A stretch of 64,000 nucleotides of DNA, from contig CAYYKJ010000007.1 of assembly GCA_964441265.1 (NCBI GenBank), positions 1-64,000 on the forward strand, given 5' to 3'. Below are positions 14,954 to 56,333 of the stretch, piece by piece. The stretch comes from an uncultured archaeon (GTDB lineage Archaea > Aenigmatarchaeota > Aenigmatarchaeia > QMZP01 > QMZT01). Each line of letters starts with the position of its first letter. The stretch's first letter is position 1. The notes under the pieces are model-generated. The model searched no databases, was not told the DNA's origin, and saw only the letters and a program-made list of their open reading frames with translations. Position numbers and translations under genes: made by a program.

Positions 14954-15525
14954 TCCCGAAAATGGAGTCGTGACGCGTGAGAGTCCATAGCGTCATAACT
15001 TGGTTAACTTTCTAAAAGGTCTTTGATTTCCAAGTTAGACATGGATATATCGACCGCGTTCGTTGCTTCTCCGCCGTCGGCTCGGCTCTTCCTGGACGTG
15101 CAGCAGCGTCCAAGGGTGGGGGTGTTCACCCATCAAAGAGCCACGTTAGCTGGGTTAAATACGGTGCGAGCCAGTATGGTCTATATCTACTGAAGGTGTC
15201 GGGAACCTGAGGGGAAGAAGCACTCAGTACGAAAGGAACAGTGCATCGTGGCCTCTGGTGTACCAGTTGTGTATACATCGCTGGGTAGCTATGCCATTGT
15301 GGATAAGGGCTGAAAGCATCTAAGCTCGAAGCCGCTCCCGAAAATAGGTTCCCACTCCTCAAACTGATTGGCAACAACCGGTGCGAGGGAAAGGATCCGG
15401 TATACGACCGGGTTGATAGAATCGGGGTGTAAGTACCGAGGCAACGAGGTATTCAGCCTACGATCACTAATACTCCAAATGGCCCTGGTTAAAGGGACAA
15501 CTCGCCGCTATTATTTTTTTATCAT

Positions 15526-33873: not shown

Positions 33874-34965
33874 ATGCCTGAGATAAAGCAGATCCCGGAG
33901 GACTTCGTGGTCAGGGAGATCTTCCGGAAGAAGGAACCCGGGGAAGGAGGGAAGACCGAGGACAGCCACTACGTATGGTTCACGCTCAAGAAGACCAACT
34001 GGAGCCTTTTCCGGGCGGTCAAAATGATCTCAAGGAAGCTGGGGGTCTCCGTGAAGAGATTCGGATATGCCGGCACCAAGGACAAGAGGGCGGTGACATA
34101 CCAGAAGGTTTCTGTGTGGAACGTCCCGATGGAGCGGCTGGAGTCGGTCAGGATAAAGGACATCGAGCTATCCGGTTTCGAGGAGAGGAGGGAGAGGATA
34201 AATCTGGGGGACCTGAAAGGCAACCGCTTCGAGATAACGGTAAGGGACATCGGGAAAGGGAAAAGGAAGGGTATGGAGAAGAACCTGGAGAGGATAAAAA
34301 GGGAGGGCATGATCAATTTTTACGGAAAGCAGAGGTTCGGGGTGAGGGGCAACACACACCTGGTCGGAAAGGAGATAATAAGGGACCGTCTGAAGGAGGC
34401 GGTCTGGACGTACCTGACTCATGGGAGAGAAAGGGAAAGGAACGAAGACGCCAGGTCGTTCAGGGAGAACCTGGAAAAGGGCGGGGATTTCATGGCCGCC
34501 ATTAAGGAGTGCCCGGGTTTCCTGGGGACCGAGAAGACACTTTTGCAGCACCTCGCCCGGGAACCGAACGATTACGCGGGAGCGCTGAGGAGGATACCGA
34601 AAAAGCTCCGGAGGATATTCGTCCATGCCTACCAGTCATACCTGTGGAACGAGATCGCGAAGGTTACGGAAGAGAAAACAATACCTATTATAGGTTTCGA
34701 TACCGATCTCTCGAAATACGAGTCGGGAAAAGAAATGAAGAGAATCCTCGGAGGGGAGGGGATAAAACCGGGCGATTTCAGGCTCAAGTCAATGCCCGAG
34801 CTCTCCGCCGAGGGGAGCGAGAGGAAAAGGATAGTTAGACCGAAGAAACTCGAATGGTCCTTCGGGGAGGATGAAATCAACGAGGGAAAGCTGAAATGCC
34901 TGCTGAAGTTCGGGATACCCCCGGGCTCCTACGCAACGGTCCTCGTGGACGGGGTGCTGAAATGA
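33874..34965 (+). CDS. truD: tRNA pseudouridine synthase TruD/Pus7
   Basis: FGYAGTKDKRAVTYQ catalytic-Asp motif; N-terminal IPEDFVVREI. Confidence 0.8.
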   Translation: MPEIKQIPEDFVVREIFRKKEPGEGGKTEDSHYVWFTLKKTNWSLFRAVKMISRKLGVSVKRFGYAGTKDKRAVTYQKVSVWNVPMERLESVRIKDIELSGFEERRERINLGDLKGNRFEITVRDIGKGKRKGMEKNLERIKREGMINFYGKQRFGVRGNTHLVGKEIIRDRLKEAVWTYLTHGRERERNEDARSFRENLEKGGDFMAAIKECPGFLGTEKTLLQHLAREPNDYAGALRRIPKKLRRIFVHAYQSYLWNEIAKVTEEKTIPIIGFDTDLSKYESGKEMKRILGGEGIKPGDFRLKSMPELSAEGSERKRIVRPKKLEWSFGEDEINEGKLKCLLKFGIPPGSYATVLVDGVLK

Positions 34966-36059
34966 GGATAGGCAAATTCGCTCTGGTGGGGGGAAGCGGG
35001 ATACTGGTGAACGAGTTCTTCCTGTGGTTCTTCACGGAGATTTTCGGTTTCTATTATCTCGTTTCCTCTGCGATAGCCATAGAGCTGTCCATAATCTCCA
35101 ATTTCGTCCTGAACAATTACTGGACCTTCGGGGACAGGAAGAAAGACGTGGGATTTTTCAGGAGGCTGATCAAGTTCAATTCCGTCTCCCTGATCGGGAT
35201 GGTTTTCACCATATTGATACTGCACCTGTTGACGGAATATTTCGGGATTTACTACCTTATATCCAACCTCATCGCCATATCCATCGTCTTCGTATGGAAT
35301 TACTTCGCCAACAAGAGATGGACCTGGTCCCCGGGAATAAGGAGAATCCCCCCGGTGGCAAAGAATCCCATGGTTTCCATAGTGATCCCAACCTACAACG
35401 AGAGGGAGAACCTGGAACTGCTGATACCCGAGATATTCATGTCCCTCTCCGAGGGGGGCGTGAAGGGGGAGGTGATCGTCGTGGATGACGATTCCCCTGA
35501 CGGGACCGGGGAGACCGCGGAAAGGATGAAGAAGAGGTTCAGGATGAAGGTCATTCGCAGGGAGGGGAAGAAGGGTCTTTCCTCCGCGGTTCTGGAAGGT
35601 TTCGGGAAGGCGGAGGGGGAGATACTGGGGGTGATGGATGCCGATTTCTCTCACCCCCCGGGGGACATTCCGAGGCTGGTGAATCCAATAATCAGGAACC
35701 GGGCGGACATGACGGTGGGCAGCCGCAAGGTCCGCGGCGGAGGAACCGAAGGCTGGCCGCTGAAGAGGAAGATCATATCATGGGGGGCCGGCCTCCTGGC
35801 CAGGCCGCTGACCAGCGTGAGGGATCCCATGTCCGGTTTCTTCTTCCTCAAGAAGGGGGTCATCAGGGGATTGGACCTGAACCCCACCGGATACAAGATA
35901 GGTCTGGAGGTAATGGTCAAGGGAAGTAACGCGAGGATACTTGAGGTCCCCTTCGTTTTCCGGGAAAGGAAGTCCGGAGAGAGCAAGCTTACTTTCAGGG
36001 AGGATCTCCGGTATCTCTTCCATTTGATTAAATTATATTGGTACAAAGCGAATAGATAA
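34962..36059 (+). CDS. GtrA-domain + GT2 glycosyltransferase (dolichyl-phosphate hexose synthase-like)
   Basis: N-terminal GtrA-like 4-TM region. Then VSIVIPTYNERENL…VVDDDSPDGT…DADFSHPP…QEG-less DPM1-like GT2. Start overlaps the truD stop. Confidence 0.75.
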   Translation: MRIGKFALVGGSGILVNEFFLWFFTEIFGFYYLVSSAIAIELSIISNFVLNNYWTFGDRKKDVGFFRRLIKFNSVSLIGMVFTILILHLLTEYFGIYYLISNLIAISIVFVWNYFANKRWTWSPGIRRIPPVAKNPMVSIVIPTYNERENLELLIPEIFMSLSEGGVKGEVIVVDDDSPDGTGETAERMKKRFRMKVIRREGKKGLSSAVLEGFGKAEGEILGVMDADFSHPPGDIPRLVNPIIRNRADMTVGSRKVRGGGTEGWPLKRKIISWGAGLLARPLTSVRDPMSGFFFLKKGVIRGLDLNPTGYKIGLEVMVKGSNARILEVPFVFRERKSGESKLTFREDLRYLFHLIKLYWYKANR

Positions 36060-36061
36060 AC

Positions 36062-37414
36062 ATGAACGGAATCCTGAAGAGAAGGGAGCTGGCGGTTTTC
36101 GTTTTGTTCCTGATATGCTATTCGTATTTCTACCTGCCGGCCGGATGGAACGAGAACAGCAGATACGACCTTACCTATTCCATGGTGGAAAACGGGACCT
36201 TCCGGATAGGCAGTTACCATGAGAACACACATGACAAATCATTCCTTGACGGACATTACTATTCGGACAAGGCACCGGGCTCCTCCTTCTTCGGTGCTGT
36301 GGCCTATTCGATGCTCGCCCCTTTCTCGGGGCCGGGCCCGGTTGCGGAGTATTTCATCAGGTTCCTGGTGGTCTCCCTCCCCTCCGCCTTCCTCTGCGTG
36401 CTTATTTACAGGCTTTCCGGCGAGTTCACGAAAAGGGAGAGGTACAGGGTGCTCGTGACCCTCGCTTACGGTCTGGGTACGATGGCTTTCCCTTATTCTC
36501 TCATGTTCTACGGTCACCAGATAGCCAGCGTTCTCCTGTTCTCCTGCTTCTATCTCCTTTTCACCAGGAGGGGTAGGATAGGTGATTACGGTCTCTTCGC
36601 CTGCGGTCTGATGATGGGAGCCGCTTTCATGACCGAATTCCCCGCCGCAATCATTTCGGTCTTCTTGTTCTTCTATGCATTCGCGGTTCTTGAGAATAAG
36701 GAGAAGATTTCCTTCCTGATACTGGGGATCATACCTCCCCTCATAATCCTCGCGGCCTACAATTTCCTCTGTTTTGGGGGGATGTTTTCCACCGGATATT
36801 CGTACCTCGCCTACCAGGAGTCCGCTGAATTCCAGTCCGCGGGATTCCTGGGGGTGTCACTCCCCGATCCCCTCGTCCTGTTGGGCATACTGTTCTCCCC
36901 GTACAGAGGGCTGTTCTTCTTTTCCCCATTCCTGCTCCTCTGCATACCCGGATTCCACCGCTTCTACAGGAACAACCGCCTCAGGAAGGAGTTCTGGCTG
37001 TTCCTCCTCTCCGTTCTTTCGTTCATTCTGTGGAATGCCGGTTATTCGGTGTGGTGGGGAGGATGGTCTCCCGGCCCCAGGCACCTAGTGCCCGTGATAC
37101 CTTTCATGGTCGTTACAATAATGCTATATTCCAGGGAATTCTCCGGCTGGAAGGAAAAGTTCGCGGTTCTGCTGGCGGCGGCTTCCATCGTCCTTACCTT
37201 TTCGGTCACCGTTACCGATCCCTTCCTGCCGGAGGGGGCATACAATCCCCTCGTCCAGCACACGATTCCCCTTCTCGCCAGGGGCGATTTCGCGTTCAAC
37301 GCGGGCAACCTGCTCGGTCTGGGGGGATTGCTTTCCCTGGTCCCCCTGCTGGCTGCCTTGGCGGTAATCCTGTGGATTCTTTCAGGAAGGAGGTTCCTGC
37401 AATGGATATCATAA
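36062..37414 (+). CDS. GT-C fold membrane glycosyltransferase (ArnT/PMT-like)
   Basis: ~11 TM, an N-terminal luminal loop with YSDKAPG, and an aromatic-rich architecture. Confidence 0.55.
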   Translation: MNGILKRRELAVFVLFLICYSYFYLPAGWNENSRYDLTYSMVENGTFRIGSYHENTHDKSFLDGHYYSDKAPGSSFFGAVAYSMLAPFSGPGPVAEYFIRFLVVSLPSAFLCVLIYRLSGEFTKRERYRVLVTLAYGLGTMAFPYSLMFYGHQIASVLLFSCFYLLFTRRGRIGDYGLFACGLMMGAAFMTEFPAAIISVFLFFYAFAVLENKEKISFLILGIIPPLIILAAYNFLCFGGMFSTGYSYLAYQESAEFQSAGFLGVSLPDPLVLLGILFSPYRGLFFFSPFLLLCIPGFHRFYRNNRLRKEFWLFLLSVLSFILWNAGYSVWWGGWSPGPRHLVPVIPFMVVTIMLYSREFSGWKEKFAVLLAAASIVLTFSVTVTDPFLPEGAYNPLVQHTIPLLARGDFAFNAGNLLGLGGLLSLVPLLAALAVILWILSGRRFLQWIS

Positions 37415-38805
37415 GAAGGATAGGCCCCGTGCGCATCCTTCTACTGGCCATACTGGGGGTCGGGATATTGCACATGATCCTGAAGTTCCACTTCATACTG
37501 TGGGACGAGGCGGTGTACATAGGCATAGGCAAGTACCTCTTTTCCCTTGGTTCGGTGGGGCTTTTCGAGGTCATCCGCCCGCCCGCCCTGCCGGTGATGC
37601 TCGGGTTCCTGTGGTTCCTGGGGGAGAGGGCGACCCTGTCTTACGACCTGCTCATCCTCCTCTTCTCCATGGGAAACGTGTACATGGCCTATCTCCTTGG
37701 GAAGAGAATTTCCGGGGAAAATGCCGGCCTTCTGGCGGGAGCATTACTCGCCATCACCCCCGTCTTCCTTTACAATTCCTTCAGGATAATGACCGGCATA
37801 CCATCCGCCTTCTTCGTTCTGATCTCCGTTTATCTGTATCTTGAGAAGAGGCCCCTTCTGGCCGGCCTTTTCTCGGGGCTGGCAGTTATGTTCAGATTCA
37901 CCAACGGGATACTTTTGCCGGTGCTCTTTTTGCTTCTCGTTCTGGACCATCACGGGGACCCCAAAAGACTGCTGAGGAAATCCCTTCTCATAGTCTTGGG
38001 ATTCTTGGTGGTCGTTTCTCCCTACCTCTTTGCCAGCCATCTCGCGTACGGAGATCCCCTCCATCCCCTGGTGCTCGCCGGCCAGCACCAGTACAATCCC
38101 GTCCACATCGTGGGTAATCCCGCGGAGAACCTCTTTTATTACCCCTCCCTCCTTTTCTGGGACAATATGCTGCTTTCCTTCTCCTTGTTTTCACTCCTGT
38201 ACATATCGGAAAACAAATGGGTGAGATATCTGTTGTTGATTTCGCTCGTATACTTGGTGGTGTTCACCTGGATGCCCAACAAGCAGCTCCGGTTCTCTCT
38301 CCCCTTTCTCCCGCTCCTTGCCGTGCTCTCCTCCTTCGGAATGCTGAGGATGAAGGACTACCTCCTGGAACAGAGGAGGAGGGTGATACTTTTCATCGCC
38401 TTCTCGCTGCTTATACTCCTATCAACCTCCGTCTCCCTTTGCAAGGATTTCCACAGGTTCGATTCCTTCCCGTCGGAGGAGCCGGGGATAGTCGGGGAAT
38501 ACTACCGCTATTTCGAGGACTCGGAGGGAACCATACTCACCAGCGACCCGGTCCCGGCCGCCTATTCAGACGTGTACATGGTCCCCTATTACAACAACAT
38601 AACCGATGCACACAGGATCTATGACCGGCATGTCGACCGGAGCGATTATGTGATCTTCAGCTTCAATCCGTTCCCCTGCTTTGACAGAGAATGCGAAGAA
38701 TTAAGAGAAGAACTGTTCGGGAAGATAAGCAGGAACGAGCTCTGCTTCAGCGAGACCTACGAGGAAACCAAGTACATCTTCAGGGTCAGTAAAACTCGGG
38801 ATTGA
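37403..38805 (+). CDS. GT-C fold membrane glycosyltransferase (ArnT/PMT-like), second copy
   Basis: A polytopic N-terminal half with WDEAVYIGIGKY (DE..Y-like) and a C-terminal soluble domain. Likely start at Met 37403; 12-nt overlap with the upstream gene. Confidence 0.55.
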
Positions 38806-40351
38806 TGTCGTCGAAGGTGGTCTGGCCGGGGAATTCCTTTAGGAGTTTGTATCCGTAAGGGTAGGAGACCGTGTGGAAGAGTATGGCCCTGTTTTCCGGG
38901 TCCTCCTCCAGCCATTCTCTGACCTCGCGGTAATCTCCAGAGCTGAATACTCTGACGGCTATGGCTTTTGCCCCTGTTTCCCTGGCCCTTTCGGTAACCC
39001 TTCCCATCTGCCCGAAATCGTCTATGAGGACGTATTCCACGTCCAGTTCTATGTCACCTGTCAGCTGATCGAAATACATCCTTGGGGTGTCGTAATAGCT
39101 GAGGGCGAACTTGTCACCGGATACCCCCATGACCACGAATTTCTCTTCCGTGCCGAATTCAACGGGCCTGTCTCCTATCACCATTATGTTGCCTTCCCTC
39201 CTGATGGGAGGGGAGCCCAGTATCTCTAATCCGCTCCCGAGAATGAGGGGCAGGTACTTGTCCGTGAAGCATATGGTCTTTATGCCCTTGCTCCCGAGAT
39301 ACATGGCCGCCTTGATCTTGCCGGGATTGTCGCAGCAACCCACCACCACCGTGGCGTTTTTCCGGACGGCCTGCTCCACCAGCATGTTTATGCCGTGGGT
39401 GTCTATTATGACCGCGATGTCTTCCCTGAAGAAGCGGGTGGTTGGGTAGAGGACCTTGTCCCTTGGGACCTCGAACCGGAAGACTCCATTCTCATCCGGA
39501 GCGTACCACTTCCCCTCCCGGTTTATGACGACGGTCCCACTGGCCGTCATGTGGGTGAGTCCCACCTCCCGTATTTCCCGGATGCGTGCCCCTTCGTGCC
39601 ATCCTATTTCCGGGAGGAGTTCGGTCTTGTTGTAACTCAGCCTTTCGGAGAAGGTGGTGAGGAGCTTCGGCCTCTGGAGTTCGTATTCGGTAAGCAATTC
39701 GTCCCTTCCGGCCCTGTAGAGAGGACCATAAAATATCTGGTAGCTCAGCCAATCCCTGGTGACCCTGTCGACCTGAGAAACCAGGATATCATGTTTGCCG
39801 AGATTTATTGAGGATTTCCCTGTTACGAACCCCTCCGGGTTCTCGGGGACGGAAAGGTTGAAGTCGGGGAGCCCCGCGGTATCCGTTTCGAAGTCGAGTG
39901 TTTCATTCAAGGCCAGAGCCTCGTCAAGTTCAGAGCGGAATTCGTTCCCCGCCGACTTCCAGAGTTCCGATGCCTTCAGCAGATCCCCTTCCGCATCCCT
40001 CCCGCAGTCCAGGGAGGCGAGCGTCTCGTATATTATCGCATCCCGCTCCGGTTCCCCTGAGAGCGAATGCTCGTAATGTGGGACCGATTCGCATATCAGG
40101 GAGGAGTCGTTTTTCAGTCTCCCCAGTATCAGGAGGATATCCCCCCTGGCGAAATCGCTTATGTCCTCCTCCAGAAGGTTCGTGAGGTTTCCTGTGAATG
40201 ACCTTTCATCCGAGCCCGTTGCCCTCAGGACGAAATGGAAGTCATGATTCTTCCCATGAGGGTCCGCATCCTGGTTCAATGTATCGGGGGCTAATAGCAT
40301 TGCTCCTAAAAAAATCATTATTATCACGAGAAGTGTTATTTCCATCTTCAT
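38786..40351 (-). CDS. secreted/membrane-anchored protein of unknown function
   Basis: N-terminal signal/anchor MKMEITLLVIIMIFLGAMLLA. ~500 aa with no recognisable motif. Confidence 0.5.
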   Translation of the reverse strand: MKMEITLLVIIMIFLGAMLLAPDTLNQDADPHGKNHDFHFVLRATGSDERSFTGNLTNLLEEDISDFARGDILLILGRLKNDSSLICESVPHYEHSLSGEPERDAIIYETLASLDCGRDAEGDLLKASELWKSAGNEFRSELDEALALNETLDFETDTAGLPDFNLSVPENPEGFVTGKSSINLGKHDILVSQVDRVTRDWLSYQIFYGPLYRAGRDELLTEYELQRPKLLTTFSERLSYNKTELLPEIGWHEGARIREIREVGLTHMTASGTVVINREGKWYAPDENGVFRFEVPRDKVLYPTTRFFREDIAVIIDTHGINMLVEQAVRKNATVVVGCCDNPGKIKAAMYLGSKGIKTICFTDKYLPLILGSGLEILGSPPIRREGNIMVIGDRPVEFGTEEKFVVMGVSGDKFALSYYDTPRMYFDQLTGDIELDVEYVLIDDFGQMGRVTERARETGAKAIAVRVFSSGDYREVREWLEEDPENRAILFHTVSYPYGYKLLKEFPGQTTFDDINPEFY

Positions 40352-40400
40352 GTTGAAATAGTTCCGGCAGTATTTAAATTCAGGTATTCCTATTATAAAA

Positions 40401-41807
40401 ATGGGCGAAATGGGGAAGGCCGTTGGGGCTTTTTATGACATGGTGAAGGAAAACAGACTGATTGCGGTCCTTTTCGTTTTTTCAACTCTTTTCTTCCTTT
40501 TCCAGCACACGACGGGAATATCCTGGGACTTCGCTTCCTACGTCCTTAACGCGAAATACCTTTTCGGAGACGGGTTCTATTTCGAGCTTCTCCGGCCCCC
40601 GGTGACTCCTTTTCTTCTGGGGATTTTCAGCGTTTTCGGATGGGCCGCTTCTGAGTATGTGTACATAATATTCGTTTCTTCTCTGTATCTTTTTTCCTGC
40701 GTCAGGGTTTCTGAGGCCCTCGGGATCGACAGGAGGATTTTTTACGCTCTCTCCCTCAACCCCTTCGTTCTTTTTTACGGGCTTTCAGTAGGTACCGAGC
40801 TCCTTTCCCTGGCCCTCCTCCAGCTCTTCGCTTACTACGCGCTCAGGAGCGACGGTTTTAGATCGGGTGTCTGTTCCGGCCTATGTTCCCTCGTCAGGTA
40901 CACCAATCTGATTTATGCCCCTCTCATACTCCTTTCGAAGAGTCTCAGGAAGATTCTTGTATTCGCTCTGGTGGTTGCGCTTGTATTCTCGCCCTGGCTC
41001 CTTTTCAATTACCTGAATTACGGACACCCCCTGATGAGCATGCTGGATTCCTTCATACTGACCGTAACGACGAGGGCGGACATCGTAATGGGTTTTGATA
41101 TCTCTCATGTGTTTATTGCCGGGAATTATCTCATCCCTCTCTTCCTTTTAGGAGTTTTTCTGAAATACAGGGAGGGATCATTCGGAAAGAAAGAATGGGC
41201 CATGTTACTGGTCCTTTTCCTCACCCTATTCTCTTATTACAGGATACCCCTGAAGCACCCCAGGTTCCTTTTCAATCTGGCGCTCCCGTTAGCCTATTTT
41301 TCTTCATTGTCGCTGGAAAAATACAGGATCAGGCCCCTTTTTGTAGCCCTGTTCAGCATTGTGCTGGGTCTGGTTTTGCTGTTTCTGGTGGCGACCTCCA
41401 GCCCGATAGTCCCCCGCATGGGGCCTTCCGACCCTTCCGTGTATCTGGCGCACGGGGGGGGATGCATGGTGAGCAGCAACAGGTGGGTTTATTTCAATTA
41501 CCTCGGAATCCCTGCCGTTCCCAATCCGAGGGATTTCAGGCTGGAAGAGTACGTGAACGAGGGATACAGGATAATAATTTTCAGGGATCCCGAACCCGAT
41601 TATGCCCGCAATCTCAGCTTTCTGAGGCAGTTTCCGGTGATAGAGGAGGGAAACAATTACGTTGTGATCGGGAATGAGAGCCTGTGCCTTGATCCTTACG
41701 TGATTAACAGCACATACCACCAGCAGCTGAACGAGTCCATATACATCGGATACGGCTATCCGGTGGAGAAAGACCCCCTGAAAATCGTGATTTCGGGAGA
41801 ATACTAG
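40401..41807 (+). CDS. polytopic membrane protein, GT-C/DUF2029-like putative glycosyltransferase
   Basis: >10 TM, with a C-terminal soluble domain. Confidence 0.4.
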   Translation: MGEMGKAVGAFYDMVKENRLIAVLFVFSTLFFLFQHTTGISWDFASYVLNAKYLFGDGFYFELLRPPVTPFLLGIFSVFGWAASEYVYIIFVSSLYLFSCVRVSEALGIDRRIFYALSLNPFVLFYGLSVGTELLSLALLQLFAYYALRSDGFRSGVCSGLCSLVRYTNLIYAPLILLSKSLRKILVFALVVALVFSPWLLFNYLNYGHPLMSMLDSFILTVTTRADIVMGFDISHVFIAGNYLIPLFLLGVFLKYREGSFGKKEWAMLLVLFLTLFSYYRIPLKHPRFLFNLALPLAYFSSLSLEKYRIRPLFVALFSIVLGLVLLFLVATSSPIVPRMGPSDPSVYLAHGGGCMVSSNRWVYFNYLGIPAVPNPRDFRLEEYVNEGYRIIIFRDPEPDYARNLSFLRQFPVIEEGNNYVVIGNESLCLDPYVINSTYHQQLNESIYIGYGYPVEKDPLKIVISGEY

Positions 41808-41846
41808 CTTTTTAAGAATTTAATCCTTAAAATCCAAAGAATAAAC

Positions 41847-43085
41847 ATGCTTGAGGATATTTTGTTCAACGGACTGTATTACATCCTGATATACGTGACT
41901 CTGTTCATATCCGTTTTCTGGTTCATGATATTCTTCGAGAAAAAGGACAGTATGACCAGAGACCCGGCGAAGCTCAAAAGGACACCCGGCCTGACCATGA
42001 TAGTCCCGGCTTACAACGAGGAAAAGAACCTGGGCAGGACCGTGGACTCCGTCCTGGGACAACATTATCCGAAAAACAAGCTGAAGGTCATAATAGTCGA
42101 CGACGCCTCCACCGACGGGACTGCCGCCGTGGGAAGGGAATACGCGGAAAAGTATCCCAACGTCAGGTTCTTCAGGCACAGGAAAAACAGGAGGAAGGCC
42201 GCTGCCACCAACACCGGACTCAGGCACGTGGATACGGAACTGGTCGGGTTCATAGACGCGGACACCGTTCTTGAGGAAAGGGACGCCCTCGTCCGCTCGA
42301 TATCCTATTTCGGAAACAAGAAAACGGGAAGCGTCATAGCTACTATAAAGCCCATGGACACCAGGACGTTCTCCCAGAAGCTCCAGAAGATAGAGTACAC
42401 CTTCACCGCCCTCGTGAGGAAGCTCCTGACCTTTCTGGGGGCGCTCTACATGACTCCCGCCTTCGCCCTTTACAGGACAAATCTCGTGAGGGAACTGGGG
42501 GGATGGGACGAGGAGAATTTCACCGAGGACCTGGAGATGGGCCTCAGGCTGCAGAACGAGGGCTATAAGATAGAGATGTCGATGAACGCGGCCGTCAAAA
42601 CGGACACCCCTGCCTCATTCAGCAAGTTCTGGAACCAGCGCATAAGGTGGGCCAGGGGATTCGTGCACAATTCCAGAAAATACACCCATATCTTCTTCGG
42701 GAGGAGCTTTGGTCACCTCGGATGGTTCGTTCTTCCCACCCAGTATCTGGTAGTGCTGCTGGCCATACCGGTTTTCCTTTATGGATTTTTTGACGCTCTC
42801 GATTCAGCGTACAGGACCGTGGTCAATTACTCTCTCATAGGTTTCGATGTACCTTACATACTTTCCCACCCCCTCAGCATTAATTTCAATTTCTTCAACC
42901 TTTCGCTGTTCCTCGTCACCCTGGTGGCCCTGGCAGCCCTTATAAGAATCGGCAGCAAACAAATCAACGAAAGCATAAACAAGCTCGAATACATACTTTA
43001 CATACCCCTCTATCCCCTGGTGAACATGCTGGTGTGGATGTGCGTGTTTTACCACGAGATCCGGAGAAGTGAGTACAAATGGTGA
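41847..43085 (+). CDS. processive family-2 glycosyltransferase (cellulose/chitin/NodC-synthase-like)
   Basis: The four GT2 synthase signatures are present in order: DDASTDGT, DAD, TED, QRIRWARG (QxxRW). Flanking TM helices. Confidence 0.8.
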   Translation: MLEDILFNGLYYILIYVTLFISVFWFMIFFEKKDSMTRDPAKLKRTPGLTMIVPAYNEEKNLGRTVDSVLGQHYPKNKLKVIIVDDASTDGTAAVGREYAEKYPNVRFFRHRKNRRKAAATNTGLRHVDTELVGFIDADTVLEERDALVRSISYFGNKKTGSVIATIKPMDTRTFSQKLQKIEYTFTALVRKLLTFLGALYMTPAFALYRTNLVRELGGWDEENFTEDLEMGLRLQNEGYKIEMSMNAAVKTDTPASFSKFWNQRIRWARGFVHNSRKYTHIFFGRSFGHLGWFVLPTQYLVVLLAIPVFLYGFFDALDSAYRTVVNYSLIGFDVPYILSHPLSINFNFFNLSLFLVTLVALAALIRIGSKQINESINKLEYILYIPLYPLVNMLVWMCVFYHEIRRSEYKW

Positions 43086-43756
43086 AGAAGAAGAAAAGCC
43101 CTTATATCGTGGCAGGCGTGGTTTCCTTCGTGATATTCATAGTGGGGTTCCTCGTCGGCTTCGCCATGCTTGATTTCCAGCTGGAGAACATCAGGCTGGA
43201 GATGGACAGGAACGAGCTGGAACTGAAGAACATAAATCTGGAACTCATGCTTCTCGACAAACTGGGGGATGGGGAAAAGCTGTGCTCCTACCTCAACAGG
43301 AGGATAGAATACATAGACAGGAAGACCTGGGAGCTGGGCAACAAGATAGTCAACCCAGAAGAAATAAACCAGCAGTATTTCGACATGCTTTCCAGGAGGT
43401 ATTCCGTCTCGCTCATAGAGGACTGGCTTTTCTCCGAGGAGCTTTCCGAGAGATGCGAGACGAAGAGGGTGAACGTGCTTTATTTCTTCGAGAAGAATTC
43501 CGACCTGTGCCAGTCCCAGGGGTATGTGCTGGATTATCTGGTCGAGAAGGACAAGGAGAACTACCTACGCATATTCTCACTTGACAAGGACCTCGACGAG
43601 CCCGCCATACAGATACTGGTGGAGGCGTACGACATAGAGAAGGCCCCCACCGTGGTGGTGGAGGGCAACAAGTTCGAGGGATTCCGGACGAAAGAGGAAC
43701 TGATGAACATATTCTGTGCGATAAACAGCGATTTCTCTTTCTGCGTACCATCCTGA
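43079..43756 (+). CDS. single-TM membrane-anchored protein coupled to the processive GT2
   Basis: 7-nt overlap with the upstream gene; an N-terminal TM, then coiled-coil and a soluble domain. Confidence 0.5.
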   Translation: MVKKKKSPYIVAGVVSFVIFIVGFLVGFAMLDFQLENIRLEMDRNELELKNINLELMLLDKLGDGEKLCSYLNRRIEYIDRKTWELGNKIVNPEEINQQYFDMLSRRYSVSLIEDWLFSEELSERCETKRVNVLYFFEKNSDLCQSQGYVLDYLVEKDKENYLRIFSLDKDLDEPAIQILVEAYDIEKAPTVVVEGNKFEGFRTKEELMNIFCAINSDFSFCVPS

Positions 43757-43864
43757 ATCCGTTTCCTGCGGAGTTCTGATATACGTACCCCTGTCTGGGC
43801 ATCGAAAATAAAAAGAAAAAGGGGTAACGTAGGCGCAATGCCTACGTTTTATTATTCAACGGAT

Positions 43865-46228
43865 TTATACGACTGCGCCTTTGTACTGGTCGCCTGACAG
43901 TGTAGCCATCTTGCTCGGCTTTATCACGTAGTTACCGATGAGGTCCCTAGTGTCAGCCGCCTGGTTACCTGCCACGATGAGCGCTTTCTGACCAGAACCG
44001 AACACGTCCTCTACGACCTCTATAAGGCCATTGCCCGACGTCTTGAGCGTGTCGTCCTCGAACCATGCTGTGCATGCGTCGGAGACGTTCCACTCGGTGT
44101 TGAGCAATTCCTTTACCAGAGTGTTTGCGCAGGGTCCGCCAACAAGGATAAGGTCCTTGTTAAGGGTGCTGGTCTGAGTTATCTCGCTCGGGAATTTGGC
44201 AACCGGGTTGGTTATTGGAACAGCTTCGCTGTATGTTCCTCCTGACGTTCCGCCAGTCGTGGATATCACCGGATCCGTCCCTATGGCTACGTTCGCGTAT
44301 GCCGGCCTTGTTCCTGGGTAGTACAGAGTCATCTTGTCGGAGTCGGTGTCTCTCTCTATGAAGGTACCGTAGTTGGATACGGCCCTGTAGAGCTTCTCTG
44401 TCCCGACCTGGTTCTCTGTCGGACCTGATGCCATTGTTACTGTGGCGATTTCCTGTGTGCTTCCGTCCCAGTTAGCAAGGAACTTCAGGGCCTGCCCTGA
44501 AGGCTCGTTTCCGCTGATGGAATACAACGGGCTCTCCGTGAAGGTCATGTTACCTACCTGGCTGAGGTCGATCTTTCCCTGTTCTTTCGTGTAAAGGTAC
44601 ACGTTCTCGTTGTCCACGATCGAACCGTTGCCGTTGAGGTCAACAGCTACCTCGTGAGAGGTGTCGTTGTATTTCAATACGAACTGGTTCGCACCCACTA
44701 TCAGGTTACCGTCATACAGGTTTGATGAACCGGTGTATGCGACCTCGTATTCGTCACCGCTTCCAAGATCCGTGAAAGTGAGGATCTTGTTGGTGTCGTC
44801 GTACGAGGAGTACCTGAGCAGGTACGATTTCTTGTCCTTGTCGAGTCCGAAGTACTCGTATCTGGCTATCCAGTCAGCGTCTGCCGGGACCGATATGTTG
44901 GGCTCCTGAACGTGGAACGCTTTTGAACCGTCCCCGTACTTCCAGCCCGAGCTGTAATAGAACACGTCTTTTGCGTATTCCGTGCTGTCGTCGTTCGTGA
45001 AGGTCAGTTTCACCTTGGTCGTACCGTCCTTCGCGAAGACAACCTTGTCCCTGTCGCTGCCTGTAAGTGCTGGTGTCATGCCTTCGAGCGCATACTTGAA
45101 GTTACCGAACAGCGGGTCCGTGTGGGAAGTCCCATCCGTGAGGTAGACTGTGTCTTCCGGAGCGACAGAGAATGTTAGCGAGTTTATCTCTGCGTTCTGC
45201 GTGCCGCCCTGTACGAAGTCTACGCTGGAACTCGTCATAAGGTCGTCGTTCTTTTTGACGGAGTTGTCAGTATCTGACAGCTCGATCTTGTCGCTCCCTA
45301 TGAAAAGCTCCACCGAACCGCTTGACTGGTCGGCTCCGGTGTACACAAGGCTTACCTGGCTGACGTATACGTTTGTGCTAATGCCAGATGCCAGTGTGTA
45401 TGAATTACCGGAAGCCCATCCGTACGTCGGCGGATTGGCTCCGTTTACCTGCACGTATGCCGTTGTTCCTGCACTGTCCCAACCGACAAGGCTGAGCGTG
45501 TAGTCGGTACCTCCGACCGTGACCGTTTCCTCATCTCCTGAGCCCGAAAGCGTAACGGTCTGAGCGCCGCTGGCCGCGTAAAGGGTCAGGGATGTGTTCG
45601 TCGGGTTCGGACCTATCTTGTATTCAGTGCCGAACATTTCTACTGACTTATCTTCGGCATCCGAAGGGTTCAGTCCGCCGAGGAAGATCACTTTCAGATC
45701 GTATGTGGTCGAGGTGTCGAACTTCACGTTGAGCACCGGCTCATCCCAGTCGTCCGGACTCTCGTCATAAAGGACCTTGTGGGTTCCGAGGTTAACCAAC
45801 TGAAGGTAGTTGACGCTCGGGTTCGTCTGAACGCTGCCCTTTGCAAGCATGTCGGGCATTTCAGAGTCCGTAAGGCTTGTCTTTATGGTCGAGAAGGCCA
45901 GATTAAGGTACGGGTAGTCGCTGGCGCTCTTCAACAGTATTCCGTTGGTAACTGATGTCTCCCCTGATGTCGAAGGGATCGATTTCTCTTCGACTGCGTA
46001 GTTTGAAACCAGGCTTGCCGCGATGTCTGCTGCACCCACCACATCTGTGGTGTCAACACCGGAACCAACCACTATGGCTGGTGATGTAAGTGTGCTTGTG
46101 GCAGAATCGGCCACCACGTATGGTGAAAGACCCTGGTCCAGGGTAGTTGCTGCAAAGGCTCCGAAAGCCAGTGTTGCTCCTGCTGCTATTGTTGCCAAAC
46201 CTCCTGCGATTAATTGCTTGATTTTCAT
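43865..46228 (-). CDS. putative S-layer / major surface glycoprotein
   Basis: Signal peptide MKIKQLIAGGLATIAAGATLAFGAFA. 787 aa, rich in T/S/N/G/Y/V/D with many N-x-S/T sequons. Strong AT-rich promoter region upstream (46229-46437). Confidence 0.5.
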   Translation of the reverse strand: MKIKQLIAGGLATIAAGATLAFGAFAATTLDQGLSPYVVADSATSTLTSPAIVVGSGVDTTDVVGAADIAASLVSNYAVEEKSIPSTSGETSVTNGILLKSASDYPYLNLAFSTIKTSLTDSEMPDMLAKGSVQTNPSVNYLQLVNLGTHKVLYDESPDDWDEPVLNVKFDTSTTYDLKVIFLGGLNPSDAEDKSVEMFGTEYKIGPNPTNTSLTLYAASGAQTVTLSGSGDEETVTVGGTDYTLSLVGWDSAGTTAYVQVNGANPPTYGWASGNSYTLASGISTNVYVSQVSLVYTGADQSSGSVELFIGSDKIELSDTDNSVKKNDDLMTSSSVDFVQGGTQNAEINSLTFSVAPEDTVYLTDGTSHTDPLFGNFKYALEGMTPALTGSDRDKVVFAKDGTTKVKLTFTNDDSTEYAKDVFYYSSGWKYGDGSKAFHVQEPNISVPADADWIARYEYFGLDKDKKSYLLRYSSYDDTNKILTFTDLGSGDEYEVAYTGSSNLYDGNLIVGANQFVLKYNDTSHEVAVDLNGNGSIVDNENVYLYTKEQGKIDLSQVGNMTFTESPLYSISGNEPSGQALKFLANWDGSTQEIATVTMASGPTENQVGTEKLYRAVSNYGTFIERDTDSDKMTLYYPGTRPAYANVAIGTDPVISTTGGTSGGTYSEAVPITNPVAKFPSEITQTSTLNKDLILVGGPCANTLVKELLNTEWNVSDACTAWFEDDTLKTSGNGLIEVVEDVFGSGQKALIVAGNQAADTRDLIGNYVIKPSKMATLSGDQYKGAVV

Positions 46229-46437
46229 ATCATATCTCCTCCTATGTTATATTTTGAGCCCTATGGGCTCTTCGTGATAAATTGTTTGTTCGATGGGGTA
46301 TATATAACTTCATTGAAACAGTTATATGGACCGTTCCATCTGGATTTAATAATATTTATATGGACTCATAATAGTTTTTTTGATGTTTTAATTGTTCCAA
46401 AAAGATTTAAAATCCTTTTTTGGCTATTTAATAGATT

Positions 46438-47292
46438 TTAAACTATTATTAGTATTATATCTCCGATTAAAAACGTTATTATCGTGGTGAGCAGGAAAAC
46501 AGGAGCGAACCGGACACCCTCTTTTATACACACGAACTTCCTGTTCTTTCGTATCTTTTCCACCTCCTCCTTTTCGAGTCCTCTCCACTTGTCATCGAGG
46601 ACAACGTCCCCCTCCCTGAGTTCTGAGACGGGAATCCTCTTCTTGAACATGTCCTTCTCTATCAACCTGGCGTAACTCGTGAAAATGAGTATGAAAGAAA
46701 GCAGGAAGGGAAGCATTAGCATGGTGGGCATTGAGGCGGGGGGTATGCCGAAAGTAATCGAAAGGTACATCACGGAAAGATAGCTGCCCAGGAAAAATAC
46801 CGCCACGAAAAATCCGTATCTCTTTGAATCATTTCTGATTTCCCTGAGGAAGGATTTCCTGAGCTTTCTGCTTCTGTATCCCAGTAAGAGGGAATAGCAT
46901 ATCAGGTAGAAGAGCGAAACGAAGAGGAAGTTCAGGAGGAGGGCCAGCGGAAGGTTGAACGTCACCGGGACCTCGAATCCCGTCATGTCAGGGAAGAGGA
47001 ATCCCATCGCTCCGAGGAGCCACGCATCTCCGTCTCCCCACTGCTTGAGGAAATACATGACCAGACCAAGCCCCAGGAACAGGCAGCCCACCATCACAGA
47101 ATTCGCCAGCAGGGAGAAGTCGGAGTAGAGGAAAGAGAATACCGCCCTCGCCGCCAGGGCCGAGATTATCATGGAATACGGGAGCCAGTCGGGGAATTCC
47201 GTATACCTGAGATCCCAGTAGCTCCCAGCCGAAAACCCGGCCAAACCGATTATCAAGGACACTATCCAGAGCATAATAATATATGACTGCAT
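46438..47292 (-). CDS. A24-family prepilin/preflagellin peptidase (PibD/FlaK-like)
   Basis: Polytopic, with WGDGDAWLLGAMG (the GDxxLL aspartyl motif). Confidence 0.6.
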   Translation of the reverse strand: MQSYIIMLWIVSLIIGLAGFSAGSYWDLRYTEFPDWLPYSMIISALAARAVFSFLYSDFSLLANSVMVGCLFLGLGLVMYFLKQWGDGDAWLLGAMGFLFPDMTGFEVPVTFNLPLALLLNFLFVSLFYLICYSLLLGYRSRKLRKSFLREIRNDSKRYGFFVAVFFLGSYLSVMYLSITFGIPPASMPTMLMLPFLLSFILIFTSYARLIEKDMFKKRIPVSELREGDVVLDDKWRGLEKEEVEKIRKNRKFVCIKEGVRFAPVFLLTTIITFLIGDIILIIV

Positions 47293-47310: not shown

Positions 47311-48156
47311 TCATTCGAGACGTTTTTCGTATTCTTCTATAAACGTATCGAATTCTTTTTGATCGAATGTTTCCTTCCATGGCGGTTTCAAATTATCTTT
47401 ATAATTTACAAATCTTTCCAGTTCTTTCATTCTAGATTCCCAGTTCAATTTACTTGGTTTAAGGTGCCTGTCCACAAGCTCCCAGTCCAGTATCATAATG
47501 CCGAAGGGATTATTTTTTTCGGGCCTCATGAGGTAAACATTTCCGGGGTGGAAATCCCTTTGAAGAATTCCCTTTTCATCCATGGTACCGTGCATCTTTA
47601 TCATTGTCTCAGAAAGAGGTTCGATTACAATCCTTTTCATTTCTTCGGATGAGAGATTCACATGACCCTTTGTTTTAAGGAAATCGTCTAGGAACGATCC
47701 CGGTGGGTATTGTCTCATGACAATGTAAAAATTTGGAGATTCGTGTAAATTTAGTCCTGATAATATCACTTCAGAAGAAGTTCTTATCAATCTCAAATTG
47801 TGTACGTTAGAGGAAGAATATATTTCATTGAGTCCCCTTTCCTCTACCATCTTCTCTTTGTCTTTTCTTGTAATATCGTGCATCAAGTCAATGTTCTTGG
47901 CGGGTTCCATTCTCTTGATATATAAGTTCCTGTTACCTTTCCTCCATTCTAGTATGGTCGACCTGTCACCTTCATAGACAGTCCGTTTTATTTCCCCTGT
48001 TTTTATTTTTTCTTCCAAAAACCCTCTCGGGTTCCTTTTGAAATCAATCGGTAACTTGAAATCAATTATTGGATTATATATTTCTCTGCCCAATTTCAGA
48101 TGTCCATAACTTTCTAGTACATCTTTTTTGTGAAATTTTGTTTTTTCCATAACCAA
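47311..48156 (-). CDS. atypical protein kinase-like protein
   Basis: ILQRDFHPGNVYL resembles the HRDLKPxN catalytic loop, and ILDWELVD the DFG-like site. The gene is markedly AT-rich relative to its neighbours. Confidence 0.5.
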   Translation of the reverse strand: MVMEKTKFHKKDVLESYGHLKLGREIYNPIIDFKLPIDFKRNPRGFLEEKIKTGEIKRTVYEGDRSTILEWRKGNRNLYIKRMEPAKNIDLMHDITRKDKEKMVEERGLNEIYSSSNVHNLRLIRTSSEVILSGLNLHESPNFYIVMRQYPPGSFLDDFLKTKGHVNLSSEEMKRIVIEPLSETMIKMHGTMDEKGILQRDFHPGNVYLMRPEKNNPFGIMILDWELVDRHLKPSKLNWESRMKELERFVNYKDNLKPPWKETFDQKEFDTFIEEYEKRLE

Positions 48157-56292: not shown

Positions 56293-56333
56293 AAGAATTC
56301 ATTCCCATTCTATACCACCGGGAGAGGGGTGAC

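What the first reader, a model, noticed from the sequence alone, without database searches (positions are those of the whole stretch)
34962..47292. Cell-surface glycosylation / exopolysaccharide island ending in a putative S-layer gene and prepilin peptidase
The genes are contiguous:
- a GtrA-fused DPM-synthase-like GT2 (lipid-linked sugar donor synthesis), translationally coupled to truD;
- two consecutive GT-C (ArnT/PMT-like) transferases that would use such donors;
- a 521-aa secreted protein of unknown function;
- another GT-C-like polytopic protein;
- a processive QxxRW GT2 with a coupled single-TM partner;
- a 787-aa signal-peptide protein rich in N-x-S/T sequons (S-layer candidate);
- an A24 prepilin peptidase.
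This looks like a dedicated machinery for glycosylating or coating the cell surface. It has both O-mannosyl-type GT-C enzymes and a polysaccharide synthase, which is an unusual combination for archaea.
Basis: partly seen in the sequence, partly recalled or inferred. Interest (0 to 1): 0.65.

Follow-up and report, generated by a model that had tools for sequence, protein, structure and literature searches.

The report
Conserved DPANN cell-surface glycosylation gene cluster
This stretch of a tiny symbiotic (DPANN) archaeon's genome carries a real set of cell-surface sugar-attaching genes, and its core, including a highly conserved protein of unknown function, recurs in the same order in dozens of related species and has not, as far as I could find, been described.

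Summary
The gene list is real. All nine genes sit at the stated coordinates and every family call held. Two details failed: the S-layer protein is not rich in N-x-S/T sequons, and the GT2's small "partner" is really the partner of the 521-aa protein.

The organism is a DPANN archaeon (Aenigmatarchaeota). The region is not a foreign island. It lies among housekeeping genes and has ordinary GC content.

Its core is GT-C transferases, a 225-aa membrane-anchored thioredoxin-like protein and the 521-aa ectodomain protein. A cellulose-synthase-like GT2 joins them in about half of loci. This core keeps its order across Aenigmatarchaeota, Woesearchaeota and Nanoarchaeia: 30 of 37 complete loci have at least three GT-C-like genes beside the 521-aa gene.

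The 521-aa family has no Pfam domain and no solved homologue. Its model shows a helical repeat, a beta domain and a periplasmic-binding-protein-like domain. In other lineages it is fused to the 225-aa protein, to a PMT-type GT-C, or to S-layer anchor modules.

Best reading: dolichyl-phosphate-hexose-dependent glycosylation of the S-layer or envelope on the outer face of the membrane, with a new ligand-binding accessory subunit. The substrate is inferred. The A24 peptidase is only a neighbour.

The parts
33874..34965 (+). truD (tRNA pseudouridine-13 synthase). Not part of the system, but first gene of the same transcription unit; its stop overlaps the next start (ATGA).
   Evidence: PF01142 6e-103; overlap sequence; the TruD-DPMS pair is kept in L007-L010.
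34962..36059 (+). Dolichyl-phosphate-hexose (probably mannose) synthase. It is a GT2 catalytic domain with the four-helix GtrA/DPMS membrane domain moved to the N-terminus.
   Evidence: 5mlz 1.5e-83. Catalytic residues 137-360 match PfDPMS 24-248, and TM residues 2-123 match PfDPMS 255-373. Pfam hits.
36062..37414 (+). GT-C fold glycosyltransferase of an unnamed family that appears mostly bacterial. A lineage-specific addition to the cluster.
37402..38805 (+). PMT_2-type GT-C glycosyltransferase with a W-D-E motif after TM1. A conserved member of the DPANN core cluster.
   Evidence: PF13231 41.4 bits against cut-off 26.1. Orthologues lie next to the 521-aa gene in most loci. N-terminal sequence.
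38786..40351 (-). The 521-aa family: an N-terminal membrane anchor plus a conserved ectodomain. The ectodomain has a helical repeat (40-147), a beta domain (174-315) and a periplasmic-binding-protein type I-like alpha/beta domain (320-513). It is the anchor gene of the DPANN cluster.
40352..40400 (.). 49-bp divergent intergenic region. A near-palindromic TATA-like box (TATTTAAAT, 40371-40379) lies about 24-26 nt from both start codons. I infer a shared bidirectional promoter giving leaderless transcripts.
   Evidence: Sequence read directly. The promoter function is inference only.
40401..41807 (+). Second PMT_2-like GT-C, a paralogue of 37402-38805, with a W-D motif after TM1.
   Evidence: BLASTP 1e-12 to the PMT_2 protein. 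Weak GT87 hit, 4e-4. Orthologues in L007, L008, L010 and L011 and in some Woesearchaeota loci.
41847..43085 (+). Membrane-embedded cellulose/chitin/PNAG-synthase-like GT2 of a DPANN clade. An accessory member of the cluster.
   Evidence: PgaC_IcaA profile matched end to end, but at 149 bits against a cut-off of 422. PDB matches 6yv7 1.8e-23 and BcsA 1e-15. Invariant D, DxD, ED and QRxRW motifs. Present in 21 of 37 complete loci.
43079..43756 (+). 225-aa protein with an N-terminal TM anchor and a thioredoxin-like ectodomain that lacks CxxC. It is the evolutionary partner of the 521-aa protein.
   Evidence: Homologous to the N-terminal ~200 aa of the 700-aa fused versions (5e-19). Weak thioredoxin and TraF profile hits. 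Present, fused or separate, in 35 of 37 complete loci.
43826..43848 (.). Hairpin (AACGTAGGC-GCAAT-GCCTACGTT) flanked by A and T runs, between the convergent 225-aa and S-layer genes. Terminator-like.
   Evidence: Sequence read directly. Function inferred.
43865..46228 (-). S-layer protein of the Methanococcales/Thermococcales type. It has a Sec-type signal peptide, a variable centre and a C-terminal "GGPCAN" anchor module. It is the likely glycosylation target.
   Evidence: PF05124 69.9 bits and TIGR01564 42.6 bits. Residues 660-711 match the M. voltae anchor domain 9fsa (PMC11410804). AGGAGG ribosome-binding site and AT-rich upstream region. 6 sequons and 20.7% Ser+Thr.
46438..47292 (-). A24-family aspartic (prepilin/preflagellin-type) signal peptidase. 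A neighbour, probably not part of the glycosylation system.
   Evidence: PF01478 30.6 bits. D27 and D89 align with the FlaK catalytic Asp residues. Linked only in L007-L010.

Best explanation
The region is a housekeeping, vertically inherited envelope-glycosylation locus of a DPANN (Aenigmatarchaeota) archaeon. It was built around a gene cluster that is conserved across DPANN.

Proposed mechanism:
1. On the cytoplasmic face, the GtrA-fused GT2 (34962-36059) loads a hexose, most likely mannose, onto dolichyl phosphate. Its GtrA-like four-helix domain holds the lipid and may help the product reach the outer leaflet.
2. On the outer face, three GT-C enzymes (36062-37414, 37402-38805, 40401-41807) transfer that sugar to acceptors.
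3. The 521-aa ectodomain protein and the 225-aa thioredoxin-like protein are membrane-anchored, non-GT accessory subunits of the GT-C enzymes. The 521-aa protein most likely acts as a ligand- or acceptor-binding adaptor at the base of the S-layer. Its architecture (helical repeat plus Venus-flytrap-like domain) resembles LpoA, the periplasmic activator of a bacterial wall synthase.
4. The most likely acceptor is the Ser/Thr-rich S-layer protein encoded next door, or its glycans.
5. The cellulose-synthase-like GT2 (41847-43085) is an optional module. It supplies either a secreted glycan or a lipid-linked primer that the GT-Cs may extend or decorate.

Shown here: the identities and folds of the enzymes, the conservation of the gene order, and the domain fusions.
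Inferred: the sugar, the acceptor, physical complex formation, and the role of the 521-aa protein.

The A24 peptidase is an unrelated neighbour.
For: Donor synthesis:
- Match to PfDPMS 5mlz at 1.5e-83 over both domains.

GT-C identity:
- PMT_2 hit above the cut-off.
- The 468-aa protein is a paralogue of the PMT_2 protein.
- Conserved Asp in the first outer loop.

Operon structure:
- ATGA overlap, a 2-nt gap and a 13-nt overlap from truD to PMT_2.
- 7-nt overlap between the GT2 and 225-aa genes.

Conservation, across 80 species-level DPANN loci:
- Of 37 loci with at least 6 kb on both sides, 35 have the 225-aa-like module.
- 33 have at least one GT-C-like gene within 6 kb, and 30 have at least three.
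- 30 have a GT-C-like gene within 300 bp of the 521-aa gene.

Domain fusions:
- 225-like::521 in 54 of 80 loci.
- PMT_2 GT-C::521 in three clusters that differ by more than 50% (P0250, P0255, P0259), seen as one continuous 921-aa ORF in L034.
- Signal peptide + 2-3 S-layer anchor modules::521 in four clusters (P0277, P0278, P0284, P0297).
- The anchor module corresponds to the M. voltae S-layer anchoring/dimerisation domain.

The 521-aa protein:
- Confident model (pLDDT 92.4).
- The C-terminal half matches type I periplasmic binding proteins (Foldseek probability 0.99-1.0).
- The whole chain aligns weakly to LpoA, which is a TPR domain plus a PBP-like domain.
- 54 invariant columns rich in D, R, H, W and Y.

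S-layer gene proximity:
- The S-layer gene is near the cluster in all five Aenigmatarchaeota loci, in two different arrangements.
Against: - No acceptor, sugar or complex has been demonstrated. Everything downstream of fold and family identity is inference.
- The Woesearchaeota loci show no PF05124-type S-layer gene within 6 kb, and only 10 of 37 have a DPMS-like gene nearby. The donor synthase and the target are therefore not part of the conserved core.
- In lineages with the S-layer-module::521 fusion, the gene stands alone without GT-C neighbours.
- The very high conservation of the 521-aa protein (45-55% identity between phyla, against 24-32% for the GT-C and GT2) and its many invariant charged residues would also fit an enzyme rather than an adaptor.
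- Man versus Glc specificity of DPMS-like enzymes cannot be read from sequence.
Confidence: 0.55

Rival explanations
1. Exopolysaccharide machine. The GT2 (41847-43085) is a processive synthase-translocase making a chitin-, PNAG- or cellulose-like polymer. The 225-aa and 521-aa proteins are its extracytoplasmic partners, as PgaD or BcsB are for their synthases, and guide or modify the nascent chain. The GT-Cs decorate the polymer with Dol-P-linked sugars, as GtrC/GacL-type enzymes do in bacteria.
For: - Processive-type motifs are invariant in the DPANN GT2 clade.
- The architecture matches PgaC end to end.
- PDB relatives include BcsA.
- The 225-aa gene overlaps the GT2 stop codon.
- In the canonical Woesearchaeota order the GT2 sits immediately before the 225-like gene.
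Against: - The GT2 is missing from 16 of 37 complete loci in which the 225-like, 521 and GT-C genes stay together.
- No GT2::521 or GT2::225 fusion was seen, whereas GT-C::521 fusions exist.
- The closest solved relative, 6yv7, is (from my own knowledge) a crenarchaeal membrane mannosyltransferase reported to act in N-glycan synthesis, so this fold need not be processive.
Confidence: 0.2
2. Lipoglycan or glycolipid pathway. The GT2 glycosylates a membrane lipid, and the several GT-C paralogues extend it outside the cell with Dol-P-mannose into a lipomannan-like glycan. This would resemble mycobacterial LM/LAM or the lipoglycans of wall-less archaea, and would coat a cell that takes its lipids from a host.
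For: - Three GT-C paralogues per locus is typical of stepwise extracytoplasmic elongation.
- Weak GT87 (PimE-type) hit for the 468-aa protein.
- GT21/ceramide glucosyltransferase hits for the GT2, and one distant relative named diacylglycerol glucosyltransferase.
Against: - All of these hits are weak or generic.
- The fusions tie the 521-aa domain to S-layer anchor modules, not to lipid-handling domains.
- No lipid-anchor synthesis gene was seen in the cluster.
Confidence: 0.15
3. No system at all. These are unrelated membrane and surface genes packed together by chance in a small, gene-dense genome.
For: - The A24 peptidase, TruD and the 281-aa gene are linked only in close relatives.
- The flanks are housekeeping genes.
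- The DPMS and S-layer genes are not linked in Woesearchaeota.
Against: - Gene order of the core is kept across phylum-level distances in 30 or more of 37 complete loci.
- There are three independent kinds of domain fusion among its members.
- Start and stop codons overlap between adjacent genes.
Confidence: 0.05

Closest known systems
Three-component polyprenyl-phosphate-sugar glycosylation systems: GtrA/GtrB/GtrC, ArnC/ArnT and CsbB/GtcA/YfhO in bacteria, and AglD/AglR/AglS acting on the Haloferax volcanii S-layer glycan
   Same: A GT2 makes a polyprenyl-P-monosaccharide on the inside. A GtrA-type membrane module is present, here fused to the GT2. GT-C enzymes encoded next to it use the donor on the outside. 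AglS is a Dol-P-Man GT-C that modifies an S-layer N-glycan (PMC4973528).
   Different: There are three GT-C paralogues instead of one. Two conserved non-GT ectodomain proteins (225 aa and 521 aa) have no counterpart in those systems. A cellulose-synthase-like GT2 sits in the same cluster. The donor synthase is not part of the conserved DPANN core.
Protein O-mannosylation (Dpm1/Ppm1 with the PMT family, GT39) of eukaryotes and actinobacteria
   Same: A DPMS homologue is paired with PMT_2-domain GT-Cs carrying the D-E motif after TM1, next to a Ser/Thr-rich secreted surface protein.
   Different: There are no MIR domains, and the proteins are about 460 aa rather than 700-800. O-mannosylation had not been described in archaea as of 2016 (PMC4973528). 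The acceptor is untested.
Eukaryotic oligosaccharyltransferase complex, with its Ost3/Ost6 (Tusc3/MagT1) thioredoxin-like subunit
   Same: A GT-C enzyme is associated with a membrane-anchored, outward-facing thioredoxin-fold protein. This association is supported here by gene order and fusions.
   Different: The DPANN thioredoxin-like domain lacks CxxC and has one TM helix rather than four. No WWD motif was found in the two extra Woesearchaeota GT-C-like proteins I checked, and the window's GT-Cs match the PMT_2 family or fall nearest ALG12, ArnT and PMT by fold. Complex formation is not shown.
LpoA, the outer-membrane lipoprotein activator of peptidoglycan synthase PBP1A
   Same: An extracytoplasmic protein with an N-terminal helical-repeat domain and a C-terminal type I periplasmic-binding-protein-like domain. 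The whole-chain Foldseek alignment to 5vat covers 524-579 columns, and 3ckm also matches.
   Different: The match is weak (probability 0.54-0.66, TM about 0.2). An extra beta domain is present and there is no sequence similarity. The membrane anchor and biological context differ. This is an analogy of architecture, not membership.
Membrane-embedded processive GT2 synthases (BcsA, PgaC/IcaA, NodC, chitin and hyaluronan synthases) and the minimal archaeal relative PDB 6yv7
   Same: The D, DxD, (T)ED and QxxRW motifs, one N-terminal and three C-terminal TM helices, and end-to-end alignment with the PgaC profile.
   Different: The score is far below the PgaC equivalog cut-off (149 against 422). 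No PilZ, BcsB, PgaD or deacetylase partners were seen. Processivity and product are unknown.

Membership tests
GT-C glycosyltransferase superfamily (450-aa protein, 36062-37414) | Polytopic GT-C fold: a conserved N-terminal TM module with long first outer loops | tested here: met
GT-C glycosyltransferase superfamily (450-aa protein) | Conserved acidic residue(s) in the first extracytoplasmic loop | tested here: met
   D58 is invariant and D69 nearly invariant among 59 family members. Both lie after TM1.
GT-C glycosyltransferase superfamily | Use of a polyprenyl-phosphate-linked sugar donor on the outer face | not testable with these tools
   Suggested only by the adjacent DPMS gene.
PMT_2 (PF13231) / GT39-like (37402-38805) | Pfam gathering score reached, with a D-E motif after TM1 | tested here: met
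   41.4 bits against 26.1. W34-D35-E36 after TM1.
Eukaryote-type protein O-mannosyltransferase (PMT1/2/4) | Luminal MIR domain and a length of about 700-800 aa | tested here: not met
   467 aa with no MIR hit. No PDB sequence hit at E<=1.
Dolichyl-phosphate-mannose synthase, archaeal type (PfDPMS) | GT2 catalytic domain plus a four-helix GtrA-like membrane domain, both homologous to PfDPMS | tested here: met
   219 bits for the catalytic domain and 70 bits for the TM domain against 5mlz. Domain order is permuted.
Dolichyl-phosphate-mannose synthase | Specificity for GDP-mannose rather than UDP-glucose or another donor | not testable with these tools
   NCBIfam equivalog cut-offs for AglJ and Dol-P-hexose transferase were not reached.
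Processive membrane GT2 synthases (BcsA/PgaC/NodC/Chs) | D, DxD, (T)ED and QxxRW motifs with flanking TM helices | tested here: met
   D86, D137(/D139), E227-D228 and Q264-R265-x-R267-W268 are invariant in 28 DPANN members. TM helices at 12-30, 293-311, 350-368 and 383-401.
PgaC/IcaA poly-beta-1,6-GlcNAc synthase (TIGR03937 equivalog) | Curated equivalog score | tested here: not met
   149.2 bits against a cut-off of 422.3.
Methanococcales/Thermococcales-type S-layer protein (PF05124, TIGR01564) | Family score above the cut-offs, a signal peptide, and a split N- plus C-terminal anchor domain | tested here: met
   69.9 against 23.9 bits, spanning residues 51-762, and 42.6 against 25 bits. Hydrophobic N-terminus ending AFA. 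Residues 660-711 match the M. voltae anchor domain.
S-layer protein | Forms the surface lattice and is abundant | not testable with these tools
   Only indirect signs: a strong AGGAGG ribosome-binding site, an AT-rich upstream region and a terminator hairpin.
Peptidase A24 (prepilin/preflagellin peptidase) | Two catalytic aspartates, the second in a GxGD motif | tested here: met
   D27 and G86-D-G-D89 align with FlaK (3s0x). PF01478 30.6 bits against 26.5.
FlaK preflagellin peptidase (NF040695 equivalog) | Curated equivalog score | tested here: not met
   31.4 bits against a cut-off of 330.
Thioredoxin-family oxidoreductase (225-aa protein) | Thioredoxin fold with a CxxC active site | tested here: not met
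   The fold is suggested only by weak hits (0.0025-0.004). The corresponding position reads C-Q-S-Q here and S-E-R-Q in the fused consensus.
Horizontally acquired genomic island | Deviant composition, mobility genes, or absence from relatives | tested here: not met
   GC 0.49-0.545 against 0.502 for the window. Flanks are housekeeping genes. Full synteny in L001/L007. Only the 450-aa GT-C looks imported.

The most novel reading that the evidence does not exclude
The 521-aa and 225-aa families are dedicated extracytoplasmic subunits of a multi-subunit GT-C glycosyltransferase complex specific to DPANN archaea. This would be a prokaryotic counterpart of the eukaryotic OST/PMT assemblies, with a thioredoxin-like subunit and a Venus-flytrap acceptor-binding subunit docked at the base of the S-layer. 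It would carry out archaeal protein O-mannosylation, or an equivalent outer-face glycosylation, of the S-layer. That would give archaeal O-glycosylation, whose enzymes are unknown, its first candidate machinery, and would define a new protein family conserved across DPANN.
Probability: 0.2. Interest if true: 0.8.

Novelty: new variant of a known kind. Interest (0 to 1): 0.6.

Why it matters
DPANN archaea have very small genomes and live attached to host cells, so their envelope is where the symbiosis happens. Despite this genome reduction, the cluster keeps its gene order across phylum-level distances, which suggests it is important for building that envelope.

Its central protein has no Pfam domain and no solved homologue. 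I found no description of it in three full-text searches. It is nevertheless 45-73% identical across DPANN.

The fusions to GT-C enzymes and to S-layer anchor modules give a concrete, testable hypothesis for its role. They also offer a candidate route to archaeal O-glycosylation, which had no known enzymes as of the 2016 review read here (PMC4973528).

The reading is limited by the lack of any biochemical data and by the fact that most carriers are uncultivated.

Tried and rejected
- Exact-sequence look-ups of the window's own S-layer and 521-aa proteins found no contig on record. The organism was identified through a 73%-identical relative instead.
- Sequence searches of the PDB with the 450-aa protein, its family profile and the PMT_2 protein gave nothing useful. 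The fold search settled the question.
- The AlphaFold-database library was not available, so the 521-aa model could be compared only with solved structures.
- I considered that the extra Woesearchaeota GT-C-like proteins (~500 and ~480 aa) might be short AglB/STT3 enzymes. I rejected this for lack of a WWD motif. They give only weak PMT_2 hits.
- I considered that the S-layer protein might be a substrate of the A24 peptidase. Its N-terminus is Sec-type, and a scan of the window for class III signal peptides found only spurious ORFs.
- Cluster-member look-ups gave no organism names for distant relatives of the 450-aa GT-C. Its bacterial origin therefore rests on the few named hits.
- Literature searches for the cluster returned nothing specific.

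Full report
**What is in the sequence**

ORF listing and translation show a tight run of genes between 33.9 and 47.3 kb.

- TruD lies at 33874-34965. Its TGA stop overlaps the ATG of the next gene (ATGA).
- The next gene, 34962-36059, joins a GtrA/DPMS membrane domain to a GT2 domain. It matches the solved Pyrococcus furiosus dolichyl-phosphate-mannose synthase at 1.5e-83.
- The alignment falls in two pieces. Catalytic residues 137-360 match 24-248 of the enzyme, and membrane residues 2-123 match 255-373. The membrane domain has therefore been moved from the C- to the N-terminus.
- Two nucleotides downstream starts a 450-aa polytopic protein with no Pfam hit. I modelled it from 59 homologues (pLDDT 94.9).
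- The next gene, 37402-38805, overlaps it by 13 nt and reaches the PMT_2 gathering score.
- The 468-aa protein at 40401-41807 is a paralogue of that PMT_2 protein (1e-12).
- The GT2 at 41847-43085 aligns end to end with the PgaC/IcaA profile but far below its cut-off. Its clade keeps D86, D137, E227-D228 and Q264-R-x-R-W268 invariant.
- The 787-aa protein is a Methanococcales/Thermococcales-type S-layer protein: PF05124 at 69.9 bits and TIGR01564 at 42.6 bits.
- The last gene is an A24 peptidase with both catalytic aspartates.

**What was wrong in the observation**

- The S-layer protein has 6 N-x-S/T sequons, against 8.8 +/- 2.6 expected from its composition. It is not sequon-rich, although it is 20.7% Ser+Thr.
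- The region is not compositionally distinct.
- It sits between eIF6, an Upf1-like helicase, EF-2 and ribosomal protein genes.

**Whose genome, and how conserved**

The 521-aa protein has more than 350 relatives. Every one that carries a source name comes from DPANN archaea (Aenigmarchaeota, Woesearchaeota, Nanoarchaeota), and identities to the query are 44-73%. A 73%-identical copy in an Aenigmarchaeota MAG lies in a locus with the same genes in the same order from EF-2 to TruD.

More distant copies still sit in a recognisable cluster. A scan of one genome per species returned 127 relatives, of which 80 loci were kept. A few carry other labels, which I take to be mislabelled bins. I called ORFs in all of them and classified the ORFs with profiles built from the window's proteins and from the Woesearchaeota neighbours.

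The canonical Woesearchaeota/Nanoarchaeia order, all on one strand, is:
- a ~500-aa GT-C-like gene;
- a ~480-aa GT-C-like gene;
- the GT2 synthase, in about half of loci;
- a ~210-aa gene like the window's 225-aa gene;
- a ~700-aa gene that is a fusion of a second 225-like module with the 521-aa domain;
- a PMT_2 GT-C gene.

Among the 37 loci with at least 6 kb on both sides:
- 35 have the 225-like module;
- 33 have at least one GT-C-like gene within 6 kb, and 30 have at least three;
- 21 have the GT2;
- 10 have a DPMS-like gene;
- 4 have a PF05124 S-layer gene, all in Aenigmatarchaeota;
- 1 has the A24 peptidase within 6 kb.

The 450-aa GT-C occurs only in the two closest relatives. Of its more distant homologues, the few that carry a source name are bacterial, and some have C-terminal TPR repeats. 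It looks like a recent import, but this rests on few named hits.

The first is an old DPANN core: the GT-Cs, the 225-aa and 521-aa genes, with or without the GT2. The second is a lineage-specific donor module, the DPMS plus the extra GT-C. The third is neighbours: the S-layer gene, the A24 peptidase and truD.

**The 521-aa protein**

It has no Pfam or NCBIfam hit. It is by far the most conserved gene of the cluster. Identity between Aenigmatarchaeota and Woesearchaeota is 44-55%, against 24-32% for the PMT_2 and GT2 genes. There are 54 invariant columns, including Q193-x-D-R-x-x-R-D-W-L202, G250-W-H-E-G-x-R256, D317-x-H-G320, D341, K345 and D364.

The model is confident (pLDDT 92.4, pTM 0.89). 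It consists of:
- an N-terminal membrane helix;
- a helical-repeat domain (40-147);
- a beta-rich domain (174-315);
- two alpha/beta subdomains (320-513).

An exhaustive profile search of 1.84 billion representatives found 180 clusters at E<=1e-30. Among them are informative fusions:
- Three mutually divergent clusters have a PMT_2 GT-C at the N-terminus and the 521 domain at the C-terminus. One, named glycosyltransferase family 39 by NCBI, appears to correspond to the uninterrupted 921-aa ORF in L034.
- Four clusters have a signal peptide and two or three copies of the PF05124 "GGPCAN" module followed by the 521 domain.

That module is the part of the Methanococcus voltae S-layer protein crystallised as the anchoring/dimerisation domain (PDB 9FSA; PMC11410804). 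The window's S-layer protein matches it at residues 660-711.

Together with the 225::521 fusion, these place the 521 domain outside the membrane at the base of the S-layer. They tie it functionally to the GT-C enzymes and to the thioredoxin-like protein. The latter gives only weak thioredoxin and TraF hits and lacks CxxC, so it is probably not a redox enzyme.

**Mechanism**

I commit to the following, with the shown and inferred steps marked.

- Shown: a DPMS-type enzyme, three GT-C-fold or GT-C-family enzymes, a synthase-like GT2, two outward-facing accessory proteins and an S-layer protein are encoded together. The core is kept in order across DPANN, and its members are found fused.
- Inferred from the established biochemistry of these families: the DPMS charges dolichyl phosphate with a hexose inside the cell, and the GT-Cs use it outside.
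- Inferred from the fusions and the fold: the 521-aa and 225-aa proteins are accessory subunits. The Venus-flytrap-like domain would bind an acceptor or ligand.
- Inferred from proximity and the anchor-module fusions: the S-layer protein, or its glycans, is the target.

The closest archaeal precedent is AglD/AglS of Haloferax volcanii, where a Dol-P-Man-dependent GT-C adds the last mannose to the S-layer N-glycan. Protein O-mannosylation itself had not been described in archaea as of 2016 (PMC4973528).

**Rivals**

- An exopolysaccharide system built around the GT2 fits the invariant processive motifs and the GT2/225 overlap. It is weakened by the absence of the GT2 from 16 of 37 complete loci and by the lack of any GT2 fusion.
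- A lipomannan-like lipoglycan pathway fits the multiplicity of GT-Cs and the weak GT87 and GT21 hits, but has no specific support.
- Chance juxtaposition is excluded for the core. It remains the best reading for the A24 peptidase and truD.

**Novelty and limits**

Each enzyme family is known, and the Dol-P-sugar plus GT-C logic is a known kind of system. What is new is threefold: the cluster's conservation across DPANN, the unannotated 521-aa family, and that family's fusions to GT-Cs and S-layer anchors. I found no description of any of these.

No sugar, acceptor or protein contact has been tested. The AlphaFold-database comparison could not be run. Organism labels come from MAG records.

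Noticed in passing
window 6568-9917 and 10853-15490 (+): The 16S and 23S rRNA genes span 3350 and 4638 nt, against model lengths of 1478 and 2987 nt. Each carries two ORFs with LAGLIDADG homing-endonuclease domains: 8062-8640, 8724-9368, 13091-13738 and 14399-14953. That suggests four intron-like insertions in one rRNA operon. GC drops to 0.41-0.46 there.
   Followed up: partly
window 47311-48156 (-): A 281-aa gene between the A24 peptidase and EF-2 has GC 0.365, against about 0.50-0.54 for its neighbours. It has no Pfam hit. It is conserved at 64% identity in the closest relative. It contains a D-F-H-P-G-N motif reminiscent of protein-kinase-like folds; that resemblance is from memory and was not tested.
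   Followed up: partly
L087 10001-13009; L088 10001-12562: In other archaeal lineages the 521-aa domain is the C-terminus of an 850-1000-aa protein. These proteins have a signal peptide and 2-3 S-layer anchor (PF05124) modules. They are encoded alone next to ABC-transporter genes, with no GT-C neighbours.
   Followed up: partly
P0304, P0307 (1362-1366 aa; metagenomic): Very long relatives carry N-terminal TPR repeats and only the C-terminal alpha/beta half of the 521-aa domain. Their organism and genomic context are unknown.
   Followed up: no
window 56166-57830 (+): A ThyX (Thy1) homologue of 554 aa, with two matched stretches. From my own knowledge this is roughly twice the usual length, so it may be a duplication, a fusion or an inserted element.
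   Followed up: no
window 1175-2452 (-) and 18177-19430 (+): Two paralogous PQQ/BamB-like beta-propeller proteins of 417-425 aa. They may be further surface proteins.
   Followed up: no
whole window: ARAGORN finds no tRNA gene in 64 kb, even though the window holds an rRNA operon and many translation genes.
   Followed up: no
window 31799-33790 (-): An Upf1/SMUBP-2-like superfamily 1 helicase (AAA_11/AAA_12, 1B domain) lies immediately upstream of truD. In the closest relative this position is occupied by purD (GARS).
   Followed up: no
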